Source: an uncultured virus (IMG/VR IMGVR_UViG_3300037010_001713) (Duplodnaviria > Heunggongvirae > Uroviricota > Caudoviricetes). From it: DNA of 64,000 nt. The notes under the pieces are model-generated. The model worked only from the letters and a program-made list of their open reading frames with translations. It was not told the origin of the DNA and made no database searches. This document shows, in pieces, positions 12,377 through 53,315 of this stretch. How positions within the stretch are numbered: position 1 is the stretch's first letter; each line of letters begins with the position of its first letter. The stretch lies in IMG/VR virus record IMGVR_UViG_3300037010_001713. One strand, 5' to 3'. The position numbers and the translations under genes were made by a program.

Positions 12377-13552
12377 CTAAAGCGGATTTCCATCTGTTAT
12401 TAACTCAGTGAACGGTGTAAACTTCTTTAGTGGAGTCAGATCTGTTATTTTATTATGACTAATATCCAGCAGTTCCAGCTGGGTTAACCCAACTAATGGA
12501 GATATGTCCCCAATTACGTTGTGACTAAGATCTAGATCTTCTAGCTGAGACATCTCCATTAGGGCAGATACATCTTCGATGTGATTGTTATCTACGGAAA
12601 GCCTAGTGAGCTTCGACATCCCCGCAAGCGGGGATGGGTTTTCTATTTTATTACAACTAAGATACAGCTCATTAAGCTGTGTTAAGTGTTCTAGTGGTAA
12701 TGTATCCCTGATTTTGTTACGACTGAGATTCAGCTGTTCCAGCTGAATTAAACCAGCTAGTGGATGTGTGTTTTCGATGCAATTATCTTGAAGACCCAGC
12801 CGAGTAAGCTGTGTCAACCCCGCAAGCAGGGATAGATCTTCTATTTCATTACGACCAAGTTCCAGCTGTTTCAGTCGAGTTAACCCGGCTATTGGGTGTA
12901 GGTTTATGACACCAGTACGAAAAAGATCCAGCTCTTCCAACTGTGTCAGCCCCGCTAGCGGGGTTATATCCTCGATAACGTTATAACCAATATATAGTTT
13001 TTTCAACTGAATTAACCCAGCTAGCTGAGCTACATCTTCGATATTGTTATATTTAAGATTTAAAATCTCCAGCTGAGTCAACCCAGCTAATGGAGATATG
13101 TCCACAATTTTGTTAAGACCAAGATTCAGCTGTTCCAACTGTGTCAACCCCGCTAGCGGGGATGTATCTTCGATTCTGTTCATTCCGAGTTCCAACTCGG
13201 TGATCTGTGCTAATCCCCCCATTGGGGATACATCTTTGATATAGTTACTAGTAAGATATAGTTGTACTAGCTGTATCAGCCCCGCTAGCGGGGATATGTC
13301 TATTACGAGGTTATTACTAAGACCCAGCTCAGTGAGCTGGGTCATCCCCGCTAGCGGGGATAGACAGCTAATGCGGTTACTGCCAAGATGCAGTTCGGTG
13401 AGCTGCGTCATCCCGGCTAAGGGTGTTATATCTGTGATATGTTTACCCTGGAGATATAACTCAGTGATATCTTGACAATCACTGAATTTTTTACCAGTAT
13501 ATGTCTCGACACACCGAATAGTATGTTCCTGTTCCTTAGTTAAATTTTCCAT
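12377..13552 (-). CDS. Internalin-like LRR protein (LRR-1, ~16 repeats)
   Basis: 22-aa repeats LxxLxLxxNxIxDIxPLAGLTQ with N-cap HTIRCVETYTGKKFSD. The AAGGAG RBS places the start at 13552. Confidence 0.92.
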   Translation of the reverse strand: MENLTKEQEHTIRCVETYTGKKFSDCQDITELYLQGKHITDITPLAGMTQLTELHLGSNRISCLSPLAGMTQLTELGLSNNLVIDISPLAGLIQLVQLYLTSNYIKDVSPMGGLAQITELELGMNRIEDTSPLAGLTQLEQLNLGLNKIVDISPLAGLTQLEILNLKYNNIEDVAQLAGLIQLKKLYIGYNVIEDITPLAGLTQLEELDLFRTGVINLHPIAGLTRLKQLELGRNEIEDLSLLAGLTQLTRLGLQDNCIENTHPLAGLIQLEQLNLSRNKIRDTLPLEHLTQLNELYLSCNKIENPSPLAGMSKLTRLSVDNNHIEDVSALMEMSQLEDLDLSHNVIGDISPLVGLTQLELLDISHNKITDLTPLKKFTPFTELITDGNPL

Positions 13553-13667
13553 AGTAACTCCTTTTTTGTTTTTCACGCTCGGGCTGCTCTTTTTTTTTTT
13601 TGAGGAGCTGTGTTAGATTTTTATTTTGATTAACTGACTATAGTACTATAGAGCATCACTATCGCCT

Positions 13668-14633
13668 TTAGTTTTTAACTTCGTTAAGTTTATTCATTCC
13701 TGCGAGTTGTGAAATACCCTTTATCTCTCTCCCATAGAGATAAATACTTTTAAGTTCTGTTAACTCAGATAGTGGAGTTAAATCATCTATCTTGTTTTTG
13801 TCAAGATTTAAGTATTTTAACTGTGGCATCCCCGTAAGAGGCGATATGTCTTTTACGAAGGTATTGTTGAGACCTAAATCGATCAACTTAGTTAACCCGG
13901 CTAGCCGAGATATATCGCTTATTTCATTATTACCAAGATACAGATGCTTCAGTTCTATCAACTCCGCAAGCGGTGATATATCTTCTATTCTATTTTGGTC
14001 GAGACGTAACCAGGACAACTCACTCATTCCAGCTAGCGCAGATATGTCGTCGACAGAGTTATTCTTGAGGTCAAGCCAAGTGAGATTAGTCATCCTCGTT
14101 AGCGGAGATATATCTTCAATAAGATTACCGACTAAATCAAGATGCTCGAGCTCAACCATTCCAGATAGCGGCGATAGGTCTCTGAATCCATTATAATCGA
14201 GATTCAGTCGTTTCATCTCGGTAATTCCAACAAGCGGGGATATATCTCCGATCCCGTTAGCGCTTACATCTAGTTCGGTGAGGTGTCTCATTCCAGACAG
14301 TGGGGTTAAATCTTTAATACGGTTGTTATATATTTCCAGATATTTTAGCTGGGTTATTCCGGTTAGTGGAGATATATCTTTGATAGCGTTATTGTAGAGA
14401 TGTAAATTTCCCAGCTCGGTCAACCCTGCAAGCGGGGACAAATCTTCGATACAGTTATCGCCGAGACGCAGTACTCTCAGCTGTTTCAACACAGCTAACG
14501 GTGATATATCTTTGATACGTACACCAACTAAGTTTAATTCAGTGAGGTCTTGACAATCGCTGAACGCTTTACCTGTGTATTTTTCAATACACTCTATGGT
14601 GTATTGGGTATCTTTTGATGTTGCCGTTGTCAT
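13668..14633 (-). CDS. Internalin-like LRR protein (LRR-2, ~13 repeats)
   Basis: Same repeat and N-cap (YTIECIEKYTGKAFSD). The AAGGAG RBS places the start at 14633. Confidence 0.9.
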   Translation of the reverse strand: MTTATSKDTQYTIECIEKYTGKAFSDCQDLTELNLVGVRIKDISPLAVLKQLRVLRLGDNCIEDLSPLAGLTELGNLHLYNNAIKDISPLTGITQLKYLEIYNNRIKDLTPLSGMRHLTELDVSANGIGDISPLVGITEMKRLNLDYNGFRDLSPLSGMVELEHLDLVGNLIEDISPLTRMTNLTWLDLKNNSVDDISALAGMSELSWLRLDQNRIEDISPLAELIELKHLYLGNNEISDISRLAGLTKLIDLGLNNTFVKDISPLTGMPQLKYLNLDKNKIDDLTPLSELTELKSIYLYGREIKGISQLAGMNKLNEVKN

Positions 14634-14660
14634 GATGACTCCTTTTTTGTTTTTATATTC

Positions 14661-14685
14661 ATATACTATATTAATGAAAAAAATA
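14661..14685 (-). promoter_or_regulatory. Accessory-gene promoter motif (variant)
   Basis: TTTTTTTCATTAATATAGTATAT upstream of LRR-2. Confidence 0.55.
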
Positions 14686-14709
14686 GAATAACACGTGAGA
14701 CTATTCTGT

Positions 14710-14739
14710 CCTCGGGCTGTCGGTTTAGACAGCCCGAGG
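14710..14739. terminator. Hairpin downstream of LRR-3
   Basis: CCTCGGGCTGTC-GGTTTA-GACAGCCCGAGG; the loop reads TAAACC on the - strand. Confidence 0.65.
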
Positions 14740-14748
14740 GTTATAATT

Positions 14749-16116
14749 CTACAACGGATCTCCATCTGTTATTAACTCAGTGAACGGTGTAAACCCCTCT
14801 AGCGGGGTAAAGTCAGTGATTTCATTATCGCTAATATCCAGCAGTTCCAGCTGAGTCAACCCAGCTAGTGCGGATATATCATAAATTTCATTACAATTAA
14901 GGATTAGTCGTTTTAGCTTGGTCATCTCCGTCAGTGCAGAAACATCAAAGATGTGGTTATTATATACGTCCAGCTCACTGAGTTGGGATAACCCAGCTAG
15001 CGGAGAAACATCTGTAATTTCATTACGACTAAGATCCAGTTTTTCCAGCCGGGTTAAACAAGCTAACGGGAGCACGCTCTCAATGACGTTATTAGCGAGC
15101 CTCAACTCAGTGAGTTGAGTCATCCCCGCTAGCGGGGATGACTCTTTGATTTTGTTGTAATTAAGATACAGCTCGGTGAGTTCGGTCATTCCCGCTAAGG
15201 GTGTTATGTCTTCTATATCGTTAATACTGATATATAACCTAGTCAGACGCGTCATATTGGCTAGCGGGGTGAGGTTGCTTATTCTGTTTTCGCTAAGACT
15301 CAGTCGTTTCATCTGACATAATTCAGCTAGTTGGTTTATATCTCTGATATGGTTATTACTAAGATTTAAAATTTCTAGCTTGGTTAGCTTAGCTAGAGGA
15401 TATAGGTTTGCAATTCTATTATTATAAAGATGCAGCTCACTTAGTTGGGATAACCCAGCTAGCGGAGAAATATCTATTATTTTATTATGACCTAGTTCTA
15501 GCTCAGTGAGCTGATTCATCCCGGCAAGAGGGGATATATCAGCAATTTTATTATGACTGATATGTAGTATTTTCAACTGGGTCAGACCAGCAAGCTGGGT
15601 TATGTCTTTTATTTTGGTCCCATATAGTCGTAGGTCAACGAGCTTCGTCATCCCGATTAGGGGCGATAGATCTTTAATTTCATTACGGCTAAATTCTAGT
15701 TTTTCCATTTGAGTCAACCCCGCTAGCGGGGATAGATCAGATACTTTGTTATATCCAAGATCTATATTTCTCAACTGAGTTAGTCCAGCTAATGGAGACA
15801 GATCTTCGATTTTACAGCAGTAGATATCCAACTGTTCTAGCTGTGTTAAATTTGAAAGAGGCGTTAGATCTTCGATATTATTAACACCGAGACGCAGTAT
15901 TCTTAACTTAGTCATCCCAGTTAGTGGCGTTAGATCTTCAATATAGTTGTTGCAGAGATCTAATTGTTCCAGCTGAGTCATCTCTACCAATGGCGATATA
16001 TCATCGATACTCTCATAGTTTATGCGCAGCTCAGTGATGGTTAGGCTATCACTGAATGATTTACCTGTGTATTTCTCGACACACTTGATGGTGTATGGTG
16101 CTCCTAATGTCGTCAT
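14749..16116 (-). CDS. Internalin-like LRR protein (LRR-3, ~19 repeats)
   Basis: N-cap YTIKCVEKYTGKSFSD, regular 22-aa repeats, ends TELITDGDPL. Confidence 0.92.
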   Translation of the reverse strand: MTTLGAPYTIKCVEKYTGKSFSDSLTITELRINYESIDDISPLVEMTQLEQLDLCNNYIEDLTPLTGMTKLRILRLGVNNIEDLTPLSNLTQLEQLDIYCCKIEDLSPLAGLTQLRNIDLGYNKVSDLSPLAGLTQMEKLEFSRNEIKDLSPLIGMTKLVDLRLYGTKIKDITQLAGLTQLKILHISHNKIADISPLAGMNQLTELELGHNKIIDISPLAGLSQLSELHLYNNRIANLYPLAKLTKLEILNLSNNHIRDINQLAELCQMKRLSLSENRISNLTPLANMTRLTRLYISINDIEDITPLAGMTELTELYLNYNKIKESSPLAGMTQLTELRLANNVIESVLPLACLTRLEKLDLSRNEITDVSPLAGLSQLSELDVYNNHIFDVSALTEMTKLKRLILNCNEIYDISALAGLTQLELLDISDNEITDFTPLEGFTPFTELITDGDPL

Positions 16117-16145
16117 GACGGCTCCTTTTTTTTGTTTTTACACTA

Positions 16146-16170
16146 ATAAACTATGTAATCGAAAAAATAG
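16146..16170 (-). promoter_or_regulatory. Accessory-gene promoter motif
   Basis: TTTTTTCGATTACATAGTTTAT upstream of LRR-3. Confidence 0.65.
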
Positions 16171-16200
16171 GGAATCACTACATTCAGTTATAGACTATTT

Positions 16201-16238
16201 TATGCTTCGATCTCTCTAAACAGAGAGATCGAAGCATA
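16201..16238. terminator. Hairpin downstream of LRR-4 (CT-AAAC-AG loop)
   Basis: Perfect 17-bp stem: TATGCTTCGATCTCTCT-AAAC-AGAGAGATCGAAGCATA. Confidence 0.7.
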
Positions 16239-16252
16239 TTTTTATTTTAATT

Positions 16253-16996
16253 TCATTTCAGGCTATAACACTCTTCAACCTGGCCGATATATCTATCGGC
16301 TTCGATATCATCGTAGCTACTACGGATAGTGGCTATAGCATCTTCTTTGGTTAGCGGGTGTCCATCAACCACTACTTTGTTCCTATCGGATGGTAGGAGG
16401 AAGAAAGTTTGTTTATACCTACCACATTTTTTCATGTGTGGATAGTTCGACAACGGATTTCCATCCACAGTTATCCACGTTAGTTGTGTTAGATTCTCTA
16501 GCGGAGATAAATCATCGATTTGGTTTCTACTGAGATGTAACGTCTTCAGCTGTGTTAGTCCAGCTAAAGGAGATAAATCTTTGATTCGGTTACCACTGAG
16601 CCATAGCTCAGTGAGATTGGTTAACCCCGCAAGCGGGGTTATATCTGTGATTTTGTTATTAAGCAGACTCAAAATTCTAAGCTGAGTCAACCCAGCCAAG
16701 GGAGACACATCTCTTATTTTATTATCTGAAATATTTAGCCAAGTGAGTTTAGTTAACCCAGCGAGCGGGGCAATGTTTTTTATCCTGTTCAGGTAAAGCT
16801 GTAGCTCGGTTAGATGTGTCATTCCGGCTATAGGGGTTAGATCTCTGATATTGTTGAGACCAAGATTCAGTATATTCAGCTGAGTCATCCACGCAAGCGG
16901 TGACAAATCTTTAATACCTCTATAGCCGAGATCCAGACCAGTGATTGTTCGGCTATCTCTGATAATGTTCAGTCCGGCTTTTGTTATTTTTTTCAT
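16253..16996 (-). CDS. LRR protein with extra C-terminal domain (LRR-4, ~7 repeats)
   Basis: Lacks the Cys N-cap. The C-terminal ~60 aa (YPH.K.C...FLLPSDR.K.V..G...TKE...IGQVE.CY) are shared with LRR-6. Confidence 0.9.
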   Translation of the reverse strand: MKKITKAGLNIIRDSRTITGLDLGYRGIKDLSPLAWMTQLNILNLGLNNIRDLTPIAGMTHLTELQLYLNRIKNIAPLAGLTKLTWLNISDNKIRDVSPLAGLTQLRILSLLNNKITDITPLAGLTNLTELWLSGNRIKDLSPLAGLTQLKTLHLSRNQIDDLSPLENLTQLTWITVDGNPLSNYPHMKKCGRYKQTFFLLPSDRNKVVVDGHPLTKEDAIATIRSSYDDIEADRYIGQVEECYSLK

Positions 16997-17021
16997 TGTA
17001 ATTTCCTTATGTCTAATTATC

Positions 17022-17048
17022 TATATACTATGTAATTGAAAAAAAAAA
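17022..17048 (-). promoter_or_regulatory. Accessory-gene promoter motif
   Basis: T10-CAATTACATAGTATATA upstream of LRR-4. Confidence 0.7.
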
Positions 17049-17078
17049 GAGAGTCACAGACTAGTTAACTGAATATCA

Positions 17079-19334: not shown

Positions 19335-19391
19335 TTAATATTTTAGGTTTTATGAAATAAAAAAAATAGGGGAGTGTGATGGATTAACCCA

Positions 19392-20621
19392 TCACACTTT
19401 ATCCGCTGTCACCTTTAGCTGGGTTAACCCAGCTAAAGGTGACAGGTCTTTTACGTCATTACTGGAGATATCCAGCCTTTTTAGTCGGTTTAAACCCATT
19501 AACGAAGTCAGATCCTCTATATGGTTATTGCTCAGCTCTAGCTCTTCCAGCTGTGTCAATAGAGCCAGTATGGATATGTCTCTTATTTTGTTATTATTGA
19601 TGAATAGTTCAGTGAGATTAATAATCCCCGCAAGCGGGGTCAAATCTCTGATTTTATTAGCACCAAGAAACAGCCGTTTCAACCGGGTCAACCCCGCTAG
19701 TGGGGTTAAATCTTCGATTCTGTTACCACCAAGGGTTAAATCAGTAATCTCAGTCAAACCAGCTAGCATGGTTACGTCTTCGATATAGTTATTAGAAAGA
19801 ATCAACTCCGTAATCTCAGTCATCCCCGCAAGCGGGGATGCGTCTTTGATATTATTATCAAAGAGATTCAGGTGTTTCATCTTAATCATTTCCGCGAGCG
19901 GGGATAGATCTTTTATTTGGTTTCGCTCAAGATTCAGTTCGGTGAGTCGTGTTAATCCCACCAGTGCTGTTATATCTTTAATGGAGTTATTGTCAAGCCA
20001 CAACTCAGTGAGGTCGGTCGCCCCTGCCAGTGGGGTTATGTTTTCAATACTGTTATGACTAAGATGTAGATCTGTAAGCTGGATCAACCCCGCTAGCGGG
20101 AAAAGATCTTTGATATGATTATGACGAAGACCAAGCTGGGTCAACTGGGTTAACCCCGCTAGTGGGGTTAGATCTTTTACACAGTTACTGAAAAGACACA
20201 ACAAAGTTAATTTTGACATCCCCGCTAACGGGAATAGATTTTCGACATTGTTAGTAGCGAGATCCAGTCGTTCCAGTTGCGTCATCCCCGCTAACGGGGA
20301 TAGGTCGCCTATTCGGCAGCCACTAAGATATAGCTCGGTGAGTCTAGTCAACCCCGCTAGTGGAGTAACATCTTTGATTTTGTTATTACCAATATCCAGT
20401 ATATTCATCTCAGTCATCCCCGCAAGCGGGGATAGGTCTGTAATGTAGTTACCATAGAGGCTCAGCTTTGTGAGTTTAATCATCCCCGATAGCGGAGATA
20501 GATCCACGATACCCTTATCATCTAAATCCAGTTCAGTGATAGTCTGACTATCACTGAATGGTTTACCTGTGTATTCCTCAACACACTTGATAGTGTATCG
20601 AGCTGCTGCTGATGTTTCCAT
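19392..20621 (-). CDS. Internalin-like LRR protein (LRR-5, ~17 repeats)
   Basis: N-cap YTIKCVEEYTGKPFSD; inserted alone and antisense between two structural genes. Confidence 0.92.
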   Translation of the reverse strand: METSAAARYTIKCVEEYTGKPFSDSQTITELDLDDKGIVDLSPLSGMIKLTKLSLYGNYITDLSPLAGMTEMNILDIGNNKIKDVTPLAGLTRLTELYLSGCRIGDLSPLAGMTQLERLDLATNNVENLFPLAGMSKLTLLCLFSNCVKDLTPLAGLTQLTQLGLRHNHIKDLFPLAGLIQLTDLHLSHNSIENITPLAGATDLTELWLDNNSIKDITALVGLTRLTELNLERNQIKDLSPLAEMIKMKHLNLFDNNIKDASPLAGMTEITELILSNNYIEDVTMLAGLTEITDLTLGGNRIEDLTPLAGLTRLKRLFLGANKIRDLTPLAGIINLTELFINNNKIRDISILALLTQLEELELSNNHIEDLTSLMGLNRLKRLDISSNDVKDLSPLAGLTQLKVTADKV

Positions 20622-20644
20622 TTTCTATCCTTTTTATTTTTATA

Positions 20645-20672
20645 CTCATATTCTATGTAATTTAAAAAAATA
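20645..20672 (-). promoter_or_regulatory. Accessory-gene promoter motif
   Basis: TTTTTTTAAATTACATAGAATATGAG upstream of LRR-5. Confidence 0.65.
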
Positions 20673-20726
20673 GAGATATCGGACTATATCAATTTAATGA
20701 AATTTTAATTACATAAAGGGTTTGCT

Positions 20727-30000: not shown

Positions 30001-30606
30001 TCACAGATCGTCATCTGATCGGGTCCTTTTCAGAGCCTGATCATATAATGGTGTATAGCACCACAATAAATCTGGAATATATGTCATCCCGTAATATCTC
30101 TCTAGTCCATCGTTACTTGCTCTAGTGTGCCAGTGTTCGCTGGTTCCACCTGGGTAGTATACGTCAACGTAGCGATAATTTTCCACCCCCCGTATATACC
30201 ATTCAGGGGAGTGCTCTATGACTTCTTTCTTAACAAGAAATTCGTCAACTTTTGTGTATTCACCGTTTTTGAGGATACCGTAGATCTTCTCAGGGTCGTC
30301 TGTGAATATCTTTACTGTATCTATTTTATCACCGTTTACGAAAACCCCGGTAGGGTTTTTGTAGACTATTGGTTCTTTAGAGGCTTCACTCTTTAATTCA
30401 TCCCATAGGTTTTTTTCGAACTCGTCGAATCCTGAAACGTCTAACGTCATGGATATGTATCTTACGATACTCCTTTTTGTTAAAAGTTCCATTAGTTTGG
30501 ATCTGTACGGGTACTTGCTTTTTTGGGGTACATTCGTACCACGATAGATTAGCAGTGTATCTACATTATCGACAAATTGTTTACCGAATCTTTCTGTAAC
30601 TTCCAT
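30001..30606 (-). CDS. Unknown paralog family B, copy 1
   Basis: Shares FGKxFV, KRxIVRY, KIFTDD, DEFLV, DVYxPGGT and YGMTYIPDLLWCYTPLYDQA with three neighbours. Confidence 0.85.
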   Translation of the reverse strand: MEVTERFGKQFVDNVDTLLIYRGTNVPQKSKYPYRSKLMELLTKRSIVRYISMTLDVSGFDEFEKNLWDELKSEASKEPIVYKNPTGVFVNGDKIDTVKIFTDDPEKIYGILKNGEYTKVDEFLVKKEVIEHSPEWYIRGVENYRYVDVYYPGGTSEHWHTRASNDGLERYYGMTYIPDLLWCYTPLYDQALKRTRSDDDL

Positions 30607-30615
30607 ATTAACTCC

Positions 30616-31260
30616 TTATATTTTATTACATTTAGTGGTTGGAAAGAATCTACCAAATTTCTTCGTGATTCTCTCAACGGCTTGATCGTATAGTGGTGCA
30701 AAGCACCACAGCATATTAGGAATGTATACCATTCCGTAGTGACGGTCTGTTGCCCCCCACTCTACGTCGCTTCTAAGGGTCTCCCAGTCGACACGTGTTC
30801 CGCCTGGTCTGTACACATCCAGATGATTATTGCTATCCACCTCGATGATGACCCACTCAGGGTACTCATGTCTACACCCGACTCGGACAAGAAATTCATC
30901 AATTTCTGTGTATTCAGCATTTTTTAAGATGTCATAAATCTCCTCGATATTATCGGTGAAAAGCTTTGATGAATCCACTCTCACATCATTAACAAAAACA
31001 CCTGTGGTGTTTTCGTACGTGTACGGGTCCTTATCGGCCTCGGTCACTATTTCGTTCCACAGATCTCTATCAAGATCATTGAACTTGCTCTTATCAAGCA
31101 AGTTCTCGAGATATCTGACGACACCTCTTTTAGTTTTTAATGATGTTAGCGTGGCCGCCAAATCCTCAATATTTTCGTCTTCGCTTCTACCTGAGAAATT
31201 AGCGATAATCTCCACATGTCCCACGAATCTTTTACCAAATTTCTCTCTAACATATGTCAT
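30616..31260 (-). CDS. Unknown paralog family B, copy 2
   Basis: Same motifs as copy 1. Confidence 0.85.
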   Translation of the reverse strand: MTYVREKFGKRFVGHVEIIANFSGRSEDENIEDLAATLTSLKTKRGVVRYLENLLDKSKFNDLDRDLWNEIVTEADKDPYTYENTTGVFVNDVRVDSSKLFTDNIEEIYDILKNAEYTEIDEFLVRVGCRHEYPEWVIIEVDSNNHLDVYRPGGTRVDWETLRSDVEWGATDRHYGMVYIPNMLWCFAPLYDQAVERITKKFGRFFPTTKCNKI

Positions 31261-31283
31261 TTTAACTCCTTAAATTTAGTTAC

Positions 31284-31336
31284 ATATATACTATGTAACT
31301 GAAAAAAAATAAGATAACTAAAACTTATACGTATGT
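31284..31336 (-). promoter_or_regulatory. Accessory promoter motif with upstream partial palindrome
   Basis: TTTTTTTCAGTTACATAGTATAT; upstream ACTTATACGTAT. Confidence 0.65.
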
Positions 31337-31374
31337 AACAGATAGTGTGGTGATAACGCACCACACTATCTGTT
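31337..31374. terminator. Stem-loop, paralog of the hairpin at 29957
   Basis: AACAGATAGTGTGGTG-ATAACG-CACCACACTATCTGTT. Confidence 0.65.
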
Positions 31375-32240
31375 TAGTGTTTTGGAAAGAATCGCCCGAA
31401 TTTATCTACGATCCGCCCTACAGCCTGGTCGTACAGTGGCGTAAAACACCACAGTAGATCTGGGATATATGTCATGCCGCAGTATCGGTCTACATCGTTA
31501 CACAATTCATCTTCTCCGACGGATTTCCAGTATGAACTGGTACCGCCTGGACAATATACGTCTAAGTGATATTGACCACATGCATGGATACTGGTCCACT
31601 CGGCGTCATAATGTACGTCCCTTACTTTGACGAGGAACTCGTCAATTTCTGTGTATTCTGTGTCTTTTATGATGTTGTATATCTTATCAACATCGTCTGT
31701 GAAAATTTTTGATGTATTTATCTTAACCTTGTTTACGAACACCCCAGTGCGGTCATCGTAAACAAACGGGTCATTATCGGCTTCCGCCTCTATTTTTTCC
31801 CACATAACCCTATCAGAGTCCTGGATCTTTGTAAGATCCAGGACTTCCCTCATATATCTGATAATACCTCTCTTGGTTTTCAGCTTAAGAAGATTGAAGC
31901 TATACAGGTATTCATTGCTCGTGTTCGTGTTAATGCTGCTATAGTTTATCAGTTCTATTGCATCCCTTACGAACTGGATCCCAAATTTTTCTTCGGCTTC
32001 CATGAACCCCTCACAAGCGGGACCTTCGTTCGCCTCATCATCCAATTCACCCCAGATAGCCTTTAAAAGGCCGTCTTGATCGAATTTTGCGAAATCCAAA
32101 ATCTCGCTGAGGTACCGTAAGACACCTCTTTTAGATAACCCGACCAAGTTGTCTCTGTGTGATGCGTCTGCACCATACAGAAATAACAACTCATTGATGT
32201 TGCTGACAAATTTCTTGCCGAATTTTTCCACTAGTTTCAT
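31374..32240 (-). CDS. Unknown paralog family B, copy 3 (duplicated N-terminal module)
   Basis: Two tandem EKFGxxFV...KRGxxRY modules, then the shared C-terminal domain. Confidence 0.85.
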   Translation of the reverse strand: MKLVEKFGKKFVSNINELLFLYGADASHRDNLVGLSKRGVLRYLSEILDFAKFDQDGLLKAIWGELDDEANEGPACEGFMEAEEKFGIQFVRDAIELINYSSINTNTSNEYLYSFNLLKLKTKRGIIRYMREVLDLTKIQDSDRVMWEKIEAEADNDPFVYDDRTGVFVNKVKINTSKIFTDDVDKIYNIIKDTEYTEIDEFLVKVRDVHYDAEWTSIHACGQYHLDVYCPGGTSSYWKSVGEDELCNDVDRYCGMTYIPDLLWCFTPLYDQAVGRIVDKFGRFFPKH

Positions 32241-32264
32241 ATGTAACTCCTTTAGTTTTTATAC

Positions 32265-32317
32265 TTATATACTATGTAACTGAAAAAAAATAAGATAACT
32301 AACTTATACGTATAAGT
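32265..32317 (-). promoter_or_regulatory. Accessory promoter motif with perfect palindrome
   Basis: T8-CAGTTACATAGTATAT; palindrome ACTTATACGTATAAGT at 32302-32317. Confidence 0.7.
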
Positions 32318-32366
32318 CGGTATGTACACCTCAGGATCTATGTTTTATAGATACTAAGGTATGATT

Positions 32367-33155
32367 TTATTCTAGTGTTTGACTTAGATCATAGCACTTT
32401 TCGACTTGACCGATAACTGTATCGACTTCATCAGTACTATAGACTCTCTTTATCTCCGCTATAAGCTCTTCTTTCGTCCAGATATAGCCGCCAAATACTA
32501 TCTTTTTCCTATCTGAGGGTAGGAGGAAGATTATATCAACAGACTCCCTACAAACCTTAATATGTGGATAACCCTTTAGAGGATTCCCATATGTTATTAG
32601 CTCAGTAAGCTGTGTTAGCCCCGTTAACGGGGCTAAATCTTCAACTTCGTTATTATATAGATGCAACTCAGTAAGCTGTACTAATCCCGCTAGTGAGGAT
32701 ATATCAACAAAACCATTGCCGCTAAGCCACAACTCAGTGAGCTGTGCTAACTCCGCGAGTGGTGAAAGATCTCTGATTCTATTATATTGTAGATGCAACC
32801 AAGCTAGTCTGTTTAACCCAGATAGTGGAGATAAGTCTGTTATTCTATTATAACCAATCTGTAGCTCAGTAAGTTGGGTCATCCCAGCCAGCGAGCGTAT
32901 GTTTGGGATATAATTATTTTTAAGATATAGATGCTCCAACTTAGTCATACCTGCAAGCGGGACTAAGTCTTTGATTTTGTTATCGTTAAGACTGAGGACC
33001 GTGAGATGTGTCATCACTGCCAGCGGGGACAAATCTTCAATATCTCTATCATCGAGACGCAGTTCTGTGATAGTTAGACTATCACAGAACGACATACCCG
33101 TTTTCTCCTCCACGCACCGGATGGTGTGACGTTGTGCTGGCGTCAGTTTTTCCAT
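32367..33155 (-). CDS. LRR protein with extra C-terminal domain (LRR-6, ~7 repeats)
   Basis: N-cap HTIRCVEEKTGMSFCD, C-terminal domain shared with LRR-4, 3 bp downstream of family B copy 4. Confidence 0.9.
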   Translation of the reverse strand: MEKLTPAQRHTIRCVEEKTGMSFCDSLTITELRLDDRDIEDLSPLAVMTHLTVLSLNDNKIKDLVPLAGMTKLEHLYLKNNYIPNIRSLAGMTQLTELQIGYNRITDLSPLSGLNRLAWLHLQYNRIRDLSPLAELAQLTELWLSGNGFVDISSLAGLVQLTELHLYNNEVEDLAPLTGLTQLTELITYGNPLKGYPHIKVCRESVDIIFLLPSDRKKIVFGGYIWTKEELIAEIKRVYSTDEVDTVIGQVEKCYDLSQTLE

Positions 33156-33158
33156 TTT

Positions 33159-33773
33159 TTAACTCCTTAATCCATCGTTCGGATAATCATTTAGTTCCTG
33201 TCGGACCCTATTCAGGGCCTGATCATATAATGGGGTGTAGCACCACAATAGCCCCGGAATATGGGTCATTCCGTAATATCTTTCAGACTCATAGCCACTT
33301 ACTCTGGTGTCCCAGTATGTACTGGTACCCCCCGTTGTGTACATATCAAGGTGATGTCTACTGTCGACTTCGACAATAGACCACTCAGAATTATGTGTTT
33401 TGGTGTCTACTTTGACGAGAAACTCATCAAGAGATATGTGCGCTCCGCTCTTGACGATATTGAAGATCTTCTCGGGGTCGTCTGTGAAGATCTTCGTTAC
33501 ATCAGTGCGGACACCGTTAATATATGTTCCAGTGAGATTGCTGACGACTAACATATCTTTGTCAGCCTCCTTCACTAGTTTGTCCCAGAGGTGTCCTTCG
33601 AGACCTCCAAAAGTTTCGGGGTTTATTAATTCTGATAGGTATCTGACGATACCTCTTTTAGTTAATAGGGATTTCAGGGTGAAATCCAGGTCCCTCATAT
33701 GCCCGTAATTTAAATCTATCAAGAGTCTGACACTCTTGATAAATTTTTTTCCAAATATCTTTTCGACTTTCAT
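33159..33773 (-). CDS. Unknown paralog family B, copy 4
   Basis: Same motifs as copies 1-3. Confidence 0.85.
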   Translation of the reverse strand: MKVEKIFGKKFIKSVRLLIDLNYGHMRDLDFTLKSLLTKRGIVRYLSELINPETFGGLEGHLWDKLVKEADKDMLVVSNLTGTYINGVRTDVTKIFTDDPEKIFNIVKSGAHISLDEFLVKVDTKTHNSEWSIVEVDSRHHLDMYTTGGTSTYWDTRVSGYESERYYGMTHIPGLLWCYTPLYDQALNRVRQELNDYPNDGLRS

Positions 33774-33797: not shown

Positions 33798-33849
33798 TTA
33801 TGTACTATGTAATTGAAAGAAAATAGGATTACTAACTTATGTATATAAG
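33798..33849 (-). promoter_or_regulatory. Accessory promoter motif with near-palindrome
   Basis: TTTTCTTTCAATTACATAGTACAT; CTTATGTATATAAG at 33836-33849. Confidence 0.65.
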
Positions 33850-39723: not shown

Positions 39724-39739
39724 AAAAGGAGATAAAGCT

Positions 39740-41727: not shown

Positions 41728-41806
41728 TCAGTAGATTAAGCTGGTTGCCAGATAAACACAGAGCTATTGTTAGAAGCAATAGCTCTGTGTTTCTATTTTT
41801 TTCAAT
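41728..41806 (+). repeat. Diverged copy of 45968-46046 (helicase 3' end plus hairpin)
   Basis: Ungapped hand alignment gives 63/79 identical bases, with compensatory changes in the hairpin stem. Confidence 0.85.
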
Positions 41807-41845
41807 TGTGTAACATATGAGTATAAATCAAAACAGGGAGACGTT

Positions 41846-42661
41846 ATGACGGCAATAACAAAAGAGACTCAACACACTATCAAGTGTGTTGAGGAATACA
41901 CAGGTAAACCATTCAGTGATAGTCAAGATATAATTGAATTAAACCTAATTGACAAAGAAATCGTAGATCTAACCCCGCTAAAGGGGTTTACTAAACTCAC
42001 TTGTTTACACCTTAACATGAATAGTATCGAAGATATATCCCCACTTGCATATATGACTCAACTCACTGAGTTGAGTCTCAGCTTGAACGAAATTGAGGAT
42101 ATATCATCACTAGCGGGGTTAGCGCAGCTGGAACAGCTAGATCTTGGTTATAACAAAATTACAAATATATCCCCGCTAGCGGGGATGACCTCACTCACCG
42201 AACTTCATCTTGATTGTAACACCATTGAGGGTTTACGCCAACTAATGGATATAACACAGTTGAATAAGCTGTATCTTGGTTATAACGATATCAAAGATAT
42301 ATCCCCGCTTGCTGGGATGACAGGGCTTACTGAGTTGTATCTCAGCAGTAACGAAATAACGGATATATCTTCATTGACGGGGATGAATAATCTCATGGGC
42401 CTATCTCTTAACGGTAACAGAATCAGAGACTTATCCCATTTAGCTGGATTAACGCAGCTGTCATATCTGGATATTGGTCATAATGAAATAGAAGATATAT
42501 CCCCGCTTGCCGGGATGACGCAGCTGAAGTGTCTGTTTATCCATGATAACAAAATGATGAGTTTATCCCCACTAGAGGGATTAAACCAGCTGGAGCAGCT
42601 GGCTCTTGACGGGTTTCATGTTATATGTGGCCCAGATATAAGGGAACTATTTCTTAATTAA
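41846..42661 (+). CDS. Internalin-like LRR protein (LRR-7, ~10 repeats)
   Basis: N-cap HTIKCVEEYTGKPFSD; variant promoter T7-CAATTGTGTAACATATGAG upstream. Confidence 0.92.
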   Translation: MTAITKETQHTIKCVEEYTGKPFSDSQDIIELNLIDKEIVDLTPLKGFTKLTCLHLNMNSIEDISPLAYMTQLTELSLSLNEIEDISSLAGLAQLEQLDLGYNKITNISPLAGMTSLTELHLDCNTIEGLRQLMDITQLNKLYLGYNDIKDISPLAGMTGLTELYLSSNEITDISSLTGMNNLMGLSLNGNRIRDLSHLAGLTQLSYLDIGHNEIEDISPLAGMTQLKCLFIHDNKMMSLSPLEGLNQLEQLALDGFHVICGPDIRELFLN

Positions 42662-42706: not shown

Positions 42707-42737
42707 TGATTAAAAATACTAGCTCATGCGTAACTTT

Positions 42738-50788: not shown

Positions 50789-51034
50789 TTAAATGATTGT
50801 GGCCATTTTTAGTTCTGTACACGTTGTATGCGCTAGCAGAACGGTGTGATTAAACACACAACCACTGACGGAGCAACAGGTCAGATCTGCTCCGGTGAAA
50901 TCATACATAGACAGGTCTAATCCATCCATGTTTGATTTTGATAGATCGGCACATACGCCGTCGGACTCACTTTCGAGCCAGTTATGATGTTGAAGCATAA
51001 CCGCTTCAACATCATTCTTTTTTAATGTCTGCAT
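50789..51034 (-). CDS. Short, degenerate pentapeptide-repeat protein
   Basis: AAGGA RBS before ATG 51034. N-cap L.QH..WL....G..ADLS followed by a few pentapeptide repeats (ADLSK, LDLSM, ADLTC). Confidence 0.6.
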   Translation of the reverse strand: MQTLKKNDVEAVMLQHHNWLESESDGVCADLSKSNMDGLDLSMYDFTGADLTCCSVSGCVFNHTVLLAHTTCTELKMATII

Positions 51035-51504
51035 TGTGATTCCTTTTTTAAGGTTTTTTCTGGCAATGGGTGTACGACAGCATAGCTTGCCAGTACATCT
51101 TCGTGCGTCCAGCCACGAGTTTGCTGAACAACTACATCTGTACCGCCACAGACCGGGCATACTGGGTGATACATATGGGTCTCACTGTAACGACATTCAC
51201 AGTCGTTACAGTAAATTCGACTAACCGTTGGTTTGACAAACGATAGCACGACTGGATTTGTTTTTTTCAACTCGGGTTCCCATTGAGACTGGATCTCAAT
51301 ACGTTTAAGAAATGTCTCTAAAACGCTAACACCAAGCATCTCGGGTTTTATTCTAAGGAAATAATTTTCCTCATCCACTGATACACTAATAACCAATAAG
51401 CCTTTCTTATCTATACGTGCATACCATGAGATGTCATGCACATCGCCACAACTCTCCACAAACATGTCAAGCATTTTAAAATGCTCATTGCATACATTAT
51501 TCAT
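51022..51504 (-). CDS. Hypothetical protein with C-terminal zinc ribbon
   Basis: CNDC...CPVCGG; preceded by the accessory promoter. Confidence 0.7.
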   Translation of the reverse strand: MNNVCNEHFKMLDMFVESCGDVHDISWYARIDKKGLLVISVSVDEENYFLRIKPEMLGVSVLETFLKRIEIQSQWEPELKKTNPVVLSFVKPTVSRIYCNDCECRYSETHMYHPVCPVCGGTDVVVQQTRGWTHEDVLASYAVVHPLPEKTLKKESQCRH

Positions 51505-51527
51505 TTTCTGACTCCTTTGGTTTTATA

Positions 51528-51556: not shown

Positions 51557-51604
51557 GAATAACGCGAGAACTAGTCGGTCCAAATATATATTATGGTATA
51601 TCTT

Positions 51605-51626
51605 AGTCTCTCTGTTTAGAGAGACT
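51605..51626. terminator. Hairpin downstream of LRR-8
   Basis: AGTCTCTCT-GTTT-AGAGAGACT (CT-AAAC-AG on the - strand). Confidence 0.6.
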
Positions 51627-51639
51627 GAATATCGCTATT

Positions 51640-52287
51640 CTATAGCGGATTTCCATCCGTTCTCAAGTCAGTGAGTTGAGTTAACCCAGCTATAGGAGAT
51701 AGATCTCTGATGCGGTTATAGCTAAGGTCTAACGCACTTAGCTGAGACATCTCTGAAAGCGGGGATATATCTTCTATACCGTTGCGACGGAGGTTCAATA
51801 TCCTCAGCTTGGTTAGACTAGATAGCGTAGATATATCTCTAAGTCCACTAGCATAAAGCTCCAGCTCGGTGAGTTGAGTCAACTCAGCAAGCAGGGATCG
51901 GTCTTCGACCCTCATAAGACTAATACTCAAACAAGTAAGCTTAGTAGAGTTCCACAGTGGATTTATGTCCTCTATACGGTTACCAACAAGATCTAGTTTG
52001 GTTAGTTCTCTCTGCCATGAAAGCGCTTCTATATCTTCTATCTTATTAAAACTAAGATCTAGCTCTTTGAGCCGCGGCAACCATAGTAGTGAGGAGATAT
52101 CTCTGATGCGATTATCGCCAAGACTCAATATTTCTAGCTGTGTCAATTCCCTTAACGGGTATAGGTTAAAGATACCCTTACCAGTTAAATTCAATTCAGT
52201 TATGTCTTTACTATCCTCGAAAGACCGACCCGTGTATCTTTCAATACACTCGATGGTGTGACTTTGCCTCCACGGTATATACCCCAT
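51640..52287 (-). CDS. Internalin-like LRR protein (LRR-8, ~8 repeats)
   Basis: N-cap HTIECIERYTGRSFED, ends TDGNPL; RBS places the start at 52287. Confidence 0.9.
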   Translation of the reverse strand: MGYIPWRQSHTIECIERYTGRSFEDSKDITELNLTGKGIFNLYPLRELTQLEILSLGDNRIRDISSLLWLPRLKELDLSFNKIEDIEALSWQRELTKLDLVGNRIEDINPLWNSTKLTCLSISLMRVEDRSLLAELTQLTELELYASGLRDISTLSSLTKLRILNLRRNGIEDISPLSEMSQLSALDLSYNRIRDLSPIAGLTQLTDLRTDGNPL

Positions 52288-52311
52288 TGTAACCCCTTTT
52301 TTTATTTTGCA

Positions 52312-52339
52312 CATATACTCTATGTAATTAAAAAAAAAA
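52312..52339 (-). promoter_or_regulatory. Accessory-gene promoter motif
   Basis: T10-AATTACATAGAGTAT. Confidence 0.65.
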
Positions 52340-52385
52340 GAAAAGCATAATGACTGGCTAGTCCAGTGGATTATTGACCTATATT

Positions 52386-52411
52386 CCAGTACCTCTAAAC
52401 AGAGGTGCTGG
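52386..52411. terminator. Hairpin downstream of LRR-9 (CT-AAAC-AG loop)
   Basis: CCAGTACCTCT-AAAC-AGAGGTGCTGG. Confidence 0.6.
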
Positions 52412-52412
52412 T

Positions 52413-53315
52413 TTATTCCAATATGAGTGTAGTAAGATGTTCCAGACCCATTAGTGGTGCTAGGCTTTTGACACTTAGACCACGGAGATACAGCTCGGTT
52501 AGCTGAGTCAATCCCTTTAGAGGAGCTATATCGTCGATTTCGTTATAGCTAATATCGAGTATTTCCAACTGAGTCATACCCGATAGTTGTGTTAAATCTT
52601 TGACTCTGTTCTCACCAAGATTTAGCTTTTTTAGCTGAGCCATAGCCATTAACGTTGACAAATCTTCGACTTTGTTTCCGTAGACATCCAGACCACTGAG
52701 CTGAGTTAGCCCCGCAATCGGGGACAGATCTACGATTTTGTTATTATTAGCAATATCCAGCTTTTTCAACTGAGTTAATCCAGCTATAGGTAATAGATCC
52801 TCTATTACGTTATCATGTAGATGCAGCTCATCGAGATTTGTCATCCCAGATAGCGAGGATAGATTGGATATTTTGTTATAGCCAAGATACAGTCTTTTCA
52901 ACTGGGTTAATCCTGTAAGCGGGGTTAAATCTTCGATATCACAGCCATCGAGACGCAGCCAAGTAAGCTTAGTCATCCCCGCTAGTGGGAGTAAATTCTC
53001 TATTTTGTTATCCCATAGATATAACCTACTGAGTTGCGTCATCCCTGTCAGAGAGTCCAAGTTTGTTATTTTGTTACTGTTAAGCTGTAGATGGGTGAGG
53101 TTCACCAGTCCCTCTAATGGAGTTATGTCTTCGATCCTGTTGTCTCCGAGATACAGCTCGGTAAGCTGTGTTAATTTCGTAAGAGGGGTTATATCTACGA
53201 TTTTTTCGCTAGTTAAATTTAATTCAGTGATAGTCGAGATATTACCGAACGGGACACCAGTACGTCTTTCAATGCACTCGATGGTGTATTTTTGGGCCTC
53301 TGTTAAGTTTTCCAT
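52413..53315 (-). CDS. Internalin-like LRR protein (LRR-9, ~12 repeats)
   Basis: N-cap YTIECIERRTGVPFG; regular 22-aa repeats with one 23-aa unit. Confidence 0.92.
   Translation of the reverse strand: MENLTEAQKYTIECIERRTGVPFGNISTITELNLTSEKIVDITPLTKLTQLTELYLGDNRIEDITPLEGLVNLTHLQLNSNKITNLDSLTGMTQLSRLYLWDNKIENLLPLAGMTKLTWLRLDGCDIEDLTPLTGLTQLKRLYLGYNKISNLSSLSGMTNLDELHLHDNVIEDLLPIAGLTQLKKLDIANNNKIVDLSPIAGLTQLSGLDVYGNKVEDLSTLMAMAQLKKLNLGENRVKDLTQLSGMTQLEILDISYNEIDDIAPLKGLTQLTELYLRGLSVKSLAPLMGLEHLTTLILE

What the first reader, a model, noticed from the sequence alone, without database searches (positions are those of the whole stretch)
12377..53315. Nine-member internalin-type LRR repertoire in a jumbo phage: a candidate diversifying protein-binder system
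Seen: nine LRR genes (12377, 13668, 14749, 16253, 19392, 32367, 41846, 51640, 52413) occur at five separate loci, with roughly 7-19 repeats each and about 110 in total. The scaffold (LxxLxLxxNxIxDIxPLAG[ML]TQ) is fixed, while the x positions of LxxLxLxxN vary widely among Y/W/H/D/E/N/R/S/G. Eight share a T-I-x-C-[VI]-E-x-x-T-G-x-x-F N-cap, and none has an evident signal peptide or wall anchor. Known: in internalins and lamprey VLRs these x positions form the concave ligand-binding face. Inference: these are cytoplasmic binders with different specificities, most plausibly inhibitors or decoys for host defence or host-takeover targets. I do not know of a described phage system like this.
Basis: partly seen in the sequence, partly recalled or inferred. 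Interest (0 to 1): 0.92.

Follow-up and report, generated by a model that had tools for sequence, protein, structure and literature searches.

The report
Nine LRR binder genes in jumbo phage
A very divergent phiKZ-like jumbo phage from microbial mats carries nine intact, non-secreted leucine-rich-repeat genes behind a shared early-type promoter, apparently a lineage-specific binder family not seen in related phages, but its targets are unknown and nothing shows active diversification.

Summary
Nine intact genes at five loci encode internalin/SDS22-type LRR proteins: 109 strict 22-residue repeats, 7-19 per gene, with a shared helical N-cap in 8 of 9 and no export or anchor signals. The backbone is a distant phiKZ-like jumbo phage found in microbial-mat metagenomes.

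New here:
- Eight of the nine genes sit behind a long conserved element (T-run, AATTACATAG, TATAAAA) that the structural genes lack. Its architecture matches published phiKZ early (virion-RNAP) promoters.
- A second four-member orphan paralog family uses the same element.
- The family looks lineage-specific: 0 of 80 related jumbo-phage contigs carry LRRs, the N-cap has no credible match among 1.84 billion proteins, and hits in the phage catalogue are Listeria host DNA.

The "diversifying" claim is not supported. The concave-variable, convex-fixed pattern is equally strong in 113 cellular LRR proteins. The paralogs are old (repeat pairs at most 82% identical in DNA). Concave-site diversity equals four-fold-site diversity.

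Best reading (about 0.42): early-expressed cytoplasmic binders with different targets, probably host proteins. This is inferred, not shown. The closest analogue is the LRR paralog families of giant viruses of eukaryotes.

The parts
12377..13552 (-). LRR gene 1 (391 aa from the ATG at 13552; the ORF runs to a GTG at 13576): N-cap, 16 repeats and an FTELITDGNPL C-cap. No promoter element of its own.
13668..14633 (-). LRR gene 2 (321 aa from the ATG at 14633): N-cap and 13 repeats.
14749..16116 (-). LRR gene 3 (455 aa): N-cap, 19 repeats and C-cap.
16253..16996 (-). LRR gene 4 (247 aa, pI 9.1): no N-cap, 7 repeats, C-cap and an extra C-terminal module of about 65 aa.
19392..20621 (-). LRR gene 5 (409 aa): N-cap and 17 repeats.
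32367..33155 (-). LRR gene 6 (262 aa): N-cap, 7 repeats, C-cap and the C-terminal module. Second gene of an operon with orphan 33159-33773. Folded at pLDDT 89.5.
41846..42661 (+). LRR gene 7 (271 aa): N-cap and 10 repeats. The only one on the + strand.
51640..52287 (-). LRR gene 8 (215 aa from the ATG at 52287): N-cap, 8 repeats and C-cap.
52413..53315 (-). LRR gene 9 (300 aa): N-cap and 12 repeats.
14666..14682 (-). Promoter-like element (T-run + AATTACATAG core, 3 mismatches) about 48 nt upstream of LRR gene 2.
16151..16167 (-). Promoter-like element upstream of LRR gene 3.
17028..17044 (-). Promoter-like element upstream of LRR gene 4.
20653..20669 (-). Promoter-like element upstream of LRR gene 5.
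33805..33821 (-). Promoter-like element upstream of the operon 33159-33773 + LRR gene 6.
41796..41830 (+). Variant promoter-like element (T-run, CAATTGTGTAACATATGAGTATAAA) upstream of LRR gene 7.
52320..52336 (-). Promoter-like element upstream of LRR gene 8.
53346..53362 (-). Promoter-like element upstream of LRR gene 9.
30001..33773 (-). Second expanded family in the same promoter class: four orphan paralogs (30001-30606, 30616-31260, 31374-32240, 33159-33773), 40-50% identical, with elements at 31291-31307, 32272-32288 and 33805-33821. LRR gene 6 (32367-33155) lies between the third and fourth.
16201..16238 (.). 17-bp-stem hairpin with a T-tract between LRR genes 3 and 4. Similar hairpins lie at 12315-12344 and 19373-19398 and downstream of most other LRR genes.

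Best explanation
A single SDS22/internalin-type LRR gene was probably acquired from a cellular source of higher GC content. It was then amplified and dispersed within this phiKZ-like jumbo phage lineage into at least nine separately transcribed genes. Each product is a bare LRR solenoid: a one-helix N-cap, 7-19 repeats and a short C-cap. Two members also carry an extra C-terminal module of about 65 aa. None has an export signal, so the proteins stay in the infected cell. Every concave face is different. The genes belong to an accessory gene class driven by a long, conserved, AT-rich promoter-like element of the type that the virion RNA polymerase of phiKZ-like phages uses for early genes. The most likely mode of action is that the proteins are made at the start of infection and each binds a different protein, probably of the host, through its concave face, so as to sequester or block it (host takeover or counter-defence).

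Shown: the genes, their architecture, their family type, the shared upstream element, their absence from related phages, and the old divergence of the paralogs.

Inferred: early timing, cytoplasmic action, binding of host proteins, and any link to defence.
For: - Family and fold: LRR identity, InlA E = 2e-97 and SDS22, fold pLDDT 89.5 with InlA/CtRoco matches.
- Location in the cell: no hydrophobic N-terminus, transmembrane segment or LPxTG; 8 of 9 are acidic, pI 4.4-5.1.
- Different surfaces: all 109 repeats are distinct and the concave positions hold about 10 effective residues. Concave identity between equivalent repeats of different paralogs is 0.143 against 0.125 for random pairs.
- Shared element: 18 hits within 3 mismatches against 2.6 expected, at a fixed distance of about 48 nt from the ATG. 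It lies directly upstream of 7 LRR genes and of the operon holding an eighth. It is absent from the 25 other plus-strand gene upstreams inspected, apart from 58084 and 59067.
[quoted passage not shown] AR9 early vRNAP promoters are extended, AT-rich and highly conserved, and sit before genes oriented opposite to virion genes (PMC5312081).
- Maintenance: all nine ORFs are intact, with a ribosome site and mostly a downstream hairpin.
- Foreign origin: GC is 0.412 against 0.377, and rare G/C-ending codons are fixed at conserved positions.
- Genuine phage DNA: zero-mismatch contigs span 16211-17129 and 18498-19435.
Against: - There are no expression data, and no RNA run holds the stretch.
- The promoter class is assigned by analogy only. 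The element is not found in the 100 fetched loci, most of them from related phages, so its role cannot be cross-checked.
- The host is unknown and no target is predicted.
- The variability pattern is generic to this LRR class. The crude selection test gives concave diversity equal to four-fold diversity (0.633 vs 0.622), so there is no evidence of positive selection.
- Cellular proteins with this repeat type are mostly secreted, multidomain surface proteins.
- The genes are interspersed among virion structural genes. A Goslar preprint proposes LRR/beta-helix domains as virion host-recognition modules.
- PADLOC gave nothing, though it models defence proteins and not anti-defence proteins.
Confidence: 0.42

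Rival explanations
1. Virion-associated host-recognition or adhesion modules. The LRR proteins attach to the tail, baseplate or capsid and bind different cell-surface structures, widening or switching host range.
For: The genes lie among structural genes. Cellular relatives are mostly surface adhesins. A preprint on phage Goslar proposes DUF7941-anchored carbohydrate-binding, hydrolase and LRR/beta-helix domains as a host-recognition 'fiber cloud' (10.64898/2026.04.21.720040, passages read).
Against: Apart from the 25-aa cap, the proteins have no N-terminal anchoring module, and Pfam reports only LRR families. They use a promoter-like element that the structural genes lack, and 8 of 9 lie on the opposite strand. 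The nine proteins share no common attachment domain. The extra C-terminal module is in only 2 of 9 and has no recognisable fold.
Confidence: 0.15
2. Binders of the phage's own proteins. They would act as adaptors, chaperones or scaffolds that organise phage assemblies, for example replication-compartment or assembly factors, and not as host-directed inhibitors.
For: LRRs are generic protein-protein scaffolds. One LRR gene shares an operon with a member of the second phage-specific paralog family. The other genes of the same promoter class are phage orphans.
Against: 0 of 80 related phiKZ-like contigs, 22 of them at least 90% complete, carry any LRR, so no conserved phage process depends on them. 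Nine different concave faces are hard to reconcile with one conserved partner.
Confidence: 0.15
3. Effectors aimed at a third party. The proteins would be released at lysis and bind surfaces of eukaryotes or other microbes in the mat. Recalled analogues are the ankyrin genes of sponge-symbiont phages and the eukaryotic association module of phage WO (only the WO paper's abstract was seen).
For: Internalin-type LRRs are classic binders of eukaryotic receptors. The phage lives in dense mat communities. The closest viral LRR repertoires are in viruses of eukaryotes.
Against: There is no secretion signal. The early-type promoter architecture argues for action inside the infected cell. No eukaryote-like domains are present.
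Confidence: 0.07
4. A functionless or nearly neutral amplification of an acquired repeat gene, that is, genomic ballast of a large phage.
For: Concave-site diversity equals four-fold-site diversity. There are no relatives.
Against: All nine frames are intact despite old divergence (repeat DNA identity at most 82%, mean 55%). The scaffold and convex residues are strongly conserved. Each unit keeps its promoter-like element, ribosome site and hairpin. Concave residues are restricted to polar and aromatic types, with D, N, Y, S, G, E, R, H and K making up 82%.
Confidence: 0.05

Closest known systems
Listeria internalins (InlA, InlB, InlH) and the SDS22-like class of 22-residue LRRs
   Same: Same repeat length and consensus. 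InlA is the best solved relative by sequence (E = 2e-97) and by fold (E = 9e-16). The concave face is variable and the convex face fixed.
   Different: No signal peptide, no LPxTG or GW anchor, and no Internalin_N or inter-repeat (LRR_adjacent) domain hit. A unique one-helix N-cap replaces the internalin cap. Phage-encoded and apparently intracellular.
LRR (and ankyrin/F-box) paralog families of giant viruses of eukaryotes (Klosneuvirinae, Marseilleviridae, pithoviruses, pandoraviruses) and entomopoxvirus
   Same: A large virus carrying many LRR-only paralogs of unknown targets. All 50 best viral structural matches to the phage model come from these viruses.
   Different: Those viruses infect eukaryotes, and sequence identity is low (13-32%). 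Here the host is a bacterium, the repeat is of the bacterial internalin type, and the genes carry phiKZ-style early-promoter-like elements.
Lineage-specific gene-family expansions in jumbo phages (about 35 zinc-ribbon copies in Bacillus phage G; Iyer et al. 2021, PMC7824862, passages read)
   Same: A single small domain amplified many-fold in one jumbo-phage lineage, with a proposed regulatory or conflict role.
   Different: A different domain. The main text of that survey of 224 jumbo phages contains neither 'LRR' nor 'leucine'. Its supplements were not read.
DUF7941-anchored LRR/beta-helix proteins of chimallivirus Goslar (preprint 10.64898/2026.04.21.720040)
   Same: LRR-like domains in a phiKZ-related phage, present in several proteins.
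   Different: The Goslar proteins have an N-terminal DUF7941 module and carbohydrate-active domains and are proposed virion fibres. The proteins here are bare LRRs with a 25-aa cap and a non-structural promoter class.
Lamprey variable lymphocyte receptors
   Same: LRR solenoids whose concave residues carry the specificity, and a repertoire of different binders.
   Different: VLR diversity is generated somatically from cassettes. Here there are nine fixed, anciently diverged germ-line genes with no sign of cassettes, recent conversion or a diversity-generating element.

Membership tests
Leucine-rich repeat superfamily (Pfam LRR_4 / LRR_8) | Significant match above the curated cut-off | tested here: met
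   9 of 9 proteins: LRR_4 at 99-270 bits against a cut-off of 27.
SDS22-like / internalin-type LRR class | 22-residue period with the L-x-x-L-x-L-x-x-N-x-I-x-x-I-x-x-L consensus | tested here: met
   108 of 109 repeats are exactly 22 residues. The best solved relatives are InlA, the CtRoco LRR, InlB and PPP1R7/SDS22.
Listeria-type internalin family | N-terminal signal peptide | tested here: not met
   The highest 12-residue hydropathy in the first 40 aa is at most 0.99 in all nine. This is a hydropathy test only; no dedicated predictor was available.
Listeria-type internalin family | Internalin_N cap domain and inter-repeat (LRR_adjacent) domain | tested here: not met
   No PF12354 or PF08191 hit at E <= 0.01 in any of the nine, while cellular hits carry them. 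The model shows a single-helix cap.
Listeria-type internalin family | Cell-wall anchor (LPxTG, GW modules) | tested here: not met
   No LPxTG in any of the nine, and only LRR families in Pfam.
Active diversification system (DGR-like or cassette/VLR-like) | Near-identical template/variable repeats or donor cassettes, and a reverse transcriptase or conversion enzyme nearby | tested here: not met
   The highest DNA identity between any two repeats is 82% and the mean is 55%. No reverse transcriptase or similar enzyme among the window ORFs scanned with PHROGs (34) and Pfam (36, lists overlapping). Only 64 kb of the genome was visible.
Positively selected binder repertoire | Excess variability or substitution rate at concave positions beyond the class norm and beyond neutral sites | tested here: not met
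   The concave/convex entropy ratio of 1.31-2.68 lies within the cellular range of 1.29-3.20. Diversity is 0.633 against 0.622 at four-fold sites, both near saturation, so the test has low power.
phiKZ-like jumbo phages | Homologs of phiKZ-type virion and tail proteins | tested here: met
   phrog_3004, 3013, 3014, 3181, 3196 and 3216 at E from 1e-31 to 1e-135. Phage_TTP_15 at 6.5e-80. tblastn hits in 242 phage records, led by Pseudomonas, Erwinia, Salmonella and Serratia phages (phiKZ-like examples: PhiPA3, SL2, Noxifer, Psa21).
phiKZ-like jumbo phages | Genome over 200 kb; split multisubunit vRNAP/nvRNAP; nucleus shell protein | not testable with these tools
   The contig is 75 kb and no whole genome is held. 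These genes were not seen in the window.
vRNAP early promoter class of phiKZ-like phages | Extended, AT-rich, highly conserved element (T-rich block plus an extended -10-like box) before genes transcribed without new protein synthesis | tested here: inconclusive
   The architecture and over-representation are met. Transcription start sites and timing could not be tested.
Goslar-type DUF7941 host-recognition proteins | N-terminal DUF7941 module | tested here: inconclusive
   Pfam reports only LRR families. I could not verify that the Pfam copy contains DUF7941.

The most novel reading that the evidence does not exclude
This phage deploys a germ-line repertoire of intracellular LRR 'antibody-like' binders, made from virion-RNAP early promoters in the first minutes of infection. 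Each would neutralise a different host immune sensor or effector, or act as a decoy for host LRR-type sensors. Together with the co-regulated four-member orphan family, this would be a previously unknown modular counter-defence arsenal in bacteriophages. It would parallel the LRR and ankyrin repertoires of giant viruses.
Probability: 0.18. Interest if true: 0.85.

Novelty: new variant of a known kind. Interest (0 to 1): 0.58.

Why it matters
LRR solenoids are among nature's preferred scaffolds for evolving new binding specificities, as in plant and animal immune receptors, lamprey VLRs and bacterial invasins. Multi-copy LRR families are known from giant viruses of eukaryotes. I found none described or present in bacteriophages: not in the phage catalogue, not in 80 related jumbo-phage contigs, and not in four literature searches. 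If these nine proteins are early intracellular inhibitors, they would be a new class of phage counter-defence or takeover factor. They would also be a natural library of compact, cysteine-poor, cytoplasm-compatible binders. The shared promoter-like element additionally defines the accessory, probably early, gene set of an uncultured jumbo-phage lineage. That gives a handle for finding its other host-directed genes, including the four-member orphan family.

Tried and rejected
1. Capsid-targeting or prohead-protease propeptide idea for the T-I-x-C-V-E motif (note). Rejected: the model places it in a helix (residues 6-19, pLDDT 88-98) packed on the first repeat as a structural cap. The protease and targeting-sequence motifs I had in mind were recalled, not tested.
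2. Relatives through the N-cap. None in the viral contigs or metagenome contigs. The exhaustive profile search of 1.84 billion representatives gave 15 hits at E <= 1e-3, best 1.6e-7. Of the five I read, three are spurious ORFs over repetitive DNA, P0125 is another repeat protein matching only the first-repeat part, and P0139 has a similar motif in a non-LRR protein. The other ten also match profile positions 17-36 and were not read.
3. Single-protein scans for close relatives in the viral contigs: none.
4. Megablast of 12000-21000 against phages: none.
5. Own genome: not held.
6. Exact look-up of the nine proteins: none in the collection, so no ortholog clusters for dN/dS.
7. C-terminal module: no sequence relatives, no Pfam hit, atlas score 0.84 (below reliability), BFVD none at E <= 1e-3, VIA best Z 5.4, which is within noise.
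8. The alignment-based viral scan with all nine proteins failed for lack of a conserved stretch. It was replaced by a degenerate DNA pattern, which found one contig with large secreted cellular-type LRR proteins.
9. INPHARED tblastn hits (26 'Listeria phage' records and 2 Enterococcus records). The best one is an UNVERIFIED_ORG record holding the inlA-inlB chromosomal locus. The Enterococcus records were not inspected.
10. PADLOC: 0 hits for 18 proteins.
11. tRNAs: none.
12. Expression: no RNA holder listed.
13. Read laying joints between LRR genes: at 80% likeness in short metagenome contigs these are most likely repeat-induced, and I drew no conclusion from them. The variant table was truncated (2287 rows not shown), so SNP density in LRR against core genes could not be compared.
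14. Promoter element in the other loci: 0 of 100 loci.
15. Synteny: in three relatives the homolog of 17079-19334 abuts the protease gene with no LRR ORF nearby.
16. Complex prediction was not used, because no specific pair is claimed to bind.
17. Earlier findings of this scan: nothing on record.

Full report
**1.
- The nine ORFs are present at the stated coordinates. All nine pass Pfam LRR_4 and LRR_8 by wide margins, at 99-270 bits against a cut-off of 27.
- A six-frame motif scan finds these nine arrays and no others.
- The repeat is strictly 22 residues. There are 109 full repeats (16, 13, 19, 7, 17, 7, 10, 8, 12), all different from one another.
- Entropy is 3.3-3.5 bits at positions 3, 5, 7, 8 and 10. 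It is at most 1.2 bits at the scaffold positions and 1.5-2.2 bits across the convex D-[LI]-S-P-L-A-G-[LM]-T-Q half.
- Eight of the nine share an N-terminal segment with T, I, C, E, T, G and F invariant. Gene 16253 lacks it.
- Genes 16253 and 32367 share an extra C-terminal module of about 65 aa, 50% identical over the 80 aligned residues. Five genes end in a G-N-P-L type C-cap.
- Three genes probably start at an internal ATG behind a conserved AAGGAG site, at 13552, 14633 and 52287.
- No protein has a signal-peptide-like or transmembrane stretch or an LPxTG motif. Eight are acidic, with pI 4.4-5.1.

**2. What the genome is.**
- The surrounding plus-strand genes match phiKZ-type PHROG families: virion proteins, prohead protease, baseplate, tail tube, helicases, and SbcCD-like and RecJ-like nucleases.
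- A conserved structural protein finds 242 phage records, led by Pseudomonas, Erwinia, Salmonella and Serratia phages and all below 60% identity, with Bacillus phage AgentSmith best at 28%.
- There is no nucleotide-level relative among 50,697 phage records.
- The window's tail-tube protein is on record from a single 75,134-bp contig, and the next relative is 40% identical. The lineage is isolated, and what is visible is a fragment.
- The DNA occurs in microbial-mat metagenome runs of separate studies, with word shares of 0.94 and 0.37, alongside related strains.
- Zero-mismatch contigs span the LRR/core-gene junctions at 16211-17129 and 18498-19435. X1 may be the source sample. X3 independently gives 16596-16988 and 16994-17291.
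- Together with the shared regulatory element described below, this rules out a chimeric or contaminant origin.

**3. How the genes are organised.**
- Seven LRR genes are each preceded by a long conserved element at a fixed distance of about 48 nt from the ATG. It reads T7-10, C, AATTACATAG, ATAT, 3-4 nt, TATAAAA, then AAGGAG.
- An eighth LRR gene (32367) is the second gene of an operon behind the same element. Gene 12377 has none.
- The core motif occurs 18 times within 3 mismatches against 2.6 expected, and 0 of 100 shuffles reach that number. Ten hits have at most 1 mismatch, nine of them on the minus strand.
- The element also heads orphan ORFs at 30616-31260, 31374-32240, 33159-33773, 51022-51504 and 59067-59597, with a variant before 58084.
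- It is absent upstream of the structural and replication genes.
- Most LRR genes are followed by a hairpin.
[quoted passage not shown] In AR9 they sit before early genes oriented opposite to virion genes (PMC5312081, passages read).
- The element here has that architecture and that arrangement. Early expression is therefore a reasonable inference, but it remains untested. No RNA run was listed, and the motif is absent from the 100 fetched loci, as expected if each lineage has its own consensus.

**4. What the proteins are.**
- By sequence the best solved relatives are InlA (E = 2e-97), the LRR of the Chlorobium Roco protein (2e-71), other internalins and SDS22/PPP1R7.
- The AlphaFold model of the 262-aa member is confident, with pLDDT 89.5 and pTM 0.85. 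It shows a single cap helix (residues 6-19) packed on the first repeat, a regular solenoid, and a small beta/alpha C-terminal module.
- Foldseek returns InlA and the CtRoco LRR, with rmsd 0.7-0.8 over 165 residues.
- The proteins are not internalins in the strict sense. They have no signal peptide, no Internalin_N or inter-repeat domain, and no anchor.
- The conserved N-terminal motif is explained as a structural cap, which disposes of my propeptide idea.
- The C-terminal module has no detectable relatives or fold match.

**5. How unusual it is.**
- Among 5.8 billion proteins the LRR part finds thousands of cellular LRR proteins, the best at 52% identity. Most are long, secreted and multidomain. 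None of the 120 best carries the N-cap.
- The N-cap profile finds no credible match among 1.84 billion representatives, in IMG/VR or in JGI metagenomes.
- Of 80 related phiKZ-like IMG/VR contigs, 22 of them at least 90% complete, 0 have an LRR_4 match. None of the 15 closest matches the family's own profile. The same scan does ring on a viral record that contains LRRs.
- An exact convex-motif pattern occurs in one of 2.9 million viral contigs, and there it lies in 1,426-aa secreted proteins.
- The best of the 26 'Listeria phage' hits in the phage catalogue is the host inlA-inlB locus in an unverified record.
- In BFVD the 50 best viral structural matches are all from giant viruses of eukaryotes or entomopoxvirus, none from a phage.
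- The nearest ESM-Atlas clusters are bacterial or unrecorded.
- Literature searches returned no paper describing an LRR repertoire in a phage. The main text of the 224-genome jumbo-phage survey contains neither 'LRR' nor 'leucine'. Its supplements were not read.
- In three relatives the homolog of 17079-19334 lies next to the protease gene with no LRR ORF nearby.

**6. Is it 'diversifying'?** The evidence says no, at least not demonstrably.
- (a) The concave-variable, convex-fixed pattern is a property of the class. In the 113 of the 120 best cellular hits that have at least 7 repeats, mean within-protein entropy is 2.40 (concave), 1.32 (convex) and 0.44 (scaffold) bits. In the phage genes it is 2.1-3.0, 0.85-1.6 and 0.4-0.8. 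The phage ratios of 1.31-2.68 lie inside the cellular 5-95% range of 1.29-3.20. Residue composition at the concave sites is also similar.
- (b) The paralogs are old. The most similar pair of repeats is 82% identical in DNA and the mean is 55%. Equivalent repeats of different genes share 14.3% of concave residues, against 12.5% for non-equivalent pairs.
- (c) Codon choice at conserved positions is position-specific and far from the window's background (p from 1e-6 to 1e-32). The repeats thus still remember one ancestral 66-nt unit, rich in codons that are rare for this phage (TCC, CCG, GCG, GGG). LRR genes are 41.2% GC against 37.7% for the other genes. This points to a foreign origin followed by amplification within the phage.
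- (d) Using that residual signal, nucleotide diversity at codon positions 1 and 2 of the concave codons (0.633) equals that at four-fold sites (0.622). Both are below the composition limit of 0.734. The concave sites are thus unconstrained or diversified to about the neutral level, with no excess, and the test has low power.
- (e) No reverse transcriptase, cassette array or recent conversion tract was seen.

**7. Most likely mechanism.**
- My preferred reading is early-expressed, cytoplasmic, single-domain binders whose different concave faces engage different proteins, most plausibly host proteins. I give it about 0.42.
- Supporting points: absence of export signals, a promoter class separate from the structural genes with the architecture of phiKZ-type early promoters, maintenance of nine intact units, and absence from all sampled relatives, which marks them as accessory, niche-specific genes.
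- Rivals: virion host-recognition modules (0.15, given the Goslar precedent), binders of phage partners (0.15), third-party effectors (0.07) and neutral ballast (0.05).
- A specific counter-defence role is possible but has no direct support.

**8. Verdict.**
- This is a real and unusual feature: a lineage-specific LRR repertoire in a bacteriophage, best compared with the LRR paralog families of giant viruses.
- I class it as a new variant of a known kind, namely repeat-protein family expansion in large viruses.
The function is open, and there are no relatives for comparative tests.

Noticed in passing
30001-33773 (- strand): A second expanded family: four tandem orphan paralogs of about 200-290 aa, 40-50% identical (E from 1e-50 to 1e-69). 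31374-32240 carries a partial internal duplication. No Pfam, PHROG or PADLOC hit. They sit behind the same promoter-like element as the LRR genes, and the last one shares an operon with LRR gene 32367.
   Followed up: partly
12620-20431 and 42171 (inside LRR genes): The S-P-L-A-G codons are preferentially TCC-CCG-CTA-GCG-GGG, which gives the GC-rich palindrome CCCCGCTAGCGGGG. There are 7 exact and 12 relaxed copies, all inside LRR genes. It may be ancestral codon memory or a DNA/RNA-level feature such as a recombination or structure site.
   Followed up: partly
downstream of the LRR genes, e.g. 12315-12344, 16201-16238, about 42690-42720, about 51600-51630: By my reading of the sequences, the terminator-like hairpins share a loop of CTAAAC or its complement GTTTAG/ATTTAG. 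This suggests a conserved, possibly bidirectional, terminator type.
   Followed up: no
P0139 (protein): A 299-aa non-LRR protein with an N-terminal hydrophobic stretch and two copies of a motif close to the phage N-cap (x-V-E-C-V-E-E-R-T-G-x-D-F-G-D). E = 8.8e-4, no Pfam family. It may be chance or a small independent helix-loop module.
   Followed up: partly
50789-51160 and 51022-51504 (- strand): Two overlapping ORFs behind the same promoter-like element. One has a weak zinc-ribbon resemblance (HypA and Lar restriction-alleviation, E about 4e-4 to 8e-4, below the cut-offs). The other has a pentapeptide-repeat match (22.8 bits against a cut-off of 20.2).
   Followed up: no
L092 (OR846717.1 11366-20451): An INPHARED record named 'Listeria phage LM 4-11-1' (UNVERIFIED_ORG) holds the Listeria inlA-inlB chromosomal locus, so it is host DNA filed as phage. 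26 such records matched the LRR query.
   Followed up: partly
window 12300-20600 in runs X1-X4: Many short contigs join different LRR genes or skip between them, and related strains at 80-99% identity coexist. These could be repeat-induced assembly joints or real strain-level rearrangements of the LRR cluster.
   Followed up: no
1-2337 (-) and 39566-40867 (+): The SbcC-like and SbcD-like nuclease subunit genes lie about 37 kb apart on opposite strands instead of forming an operon.
   Followed up: no
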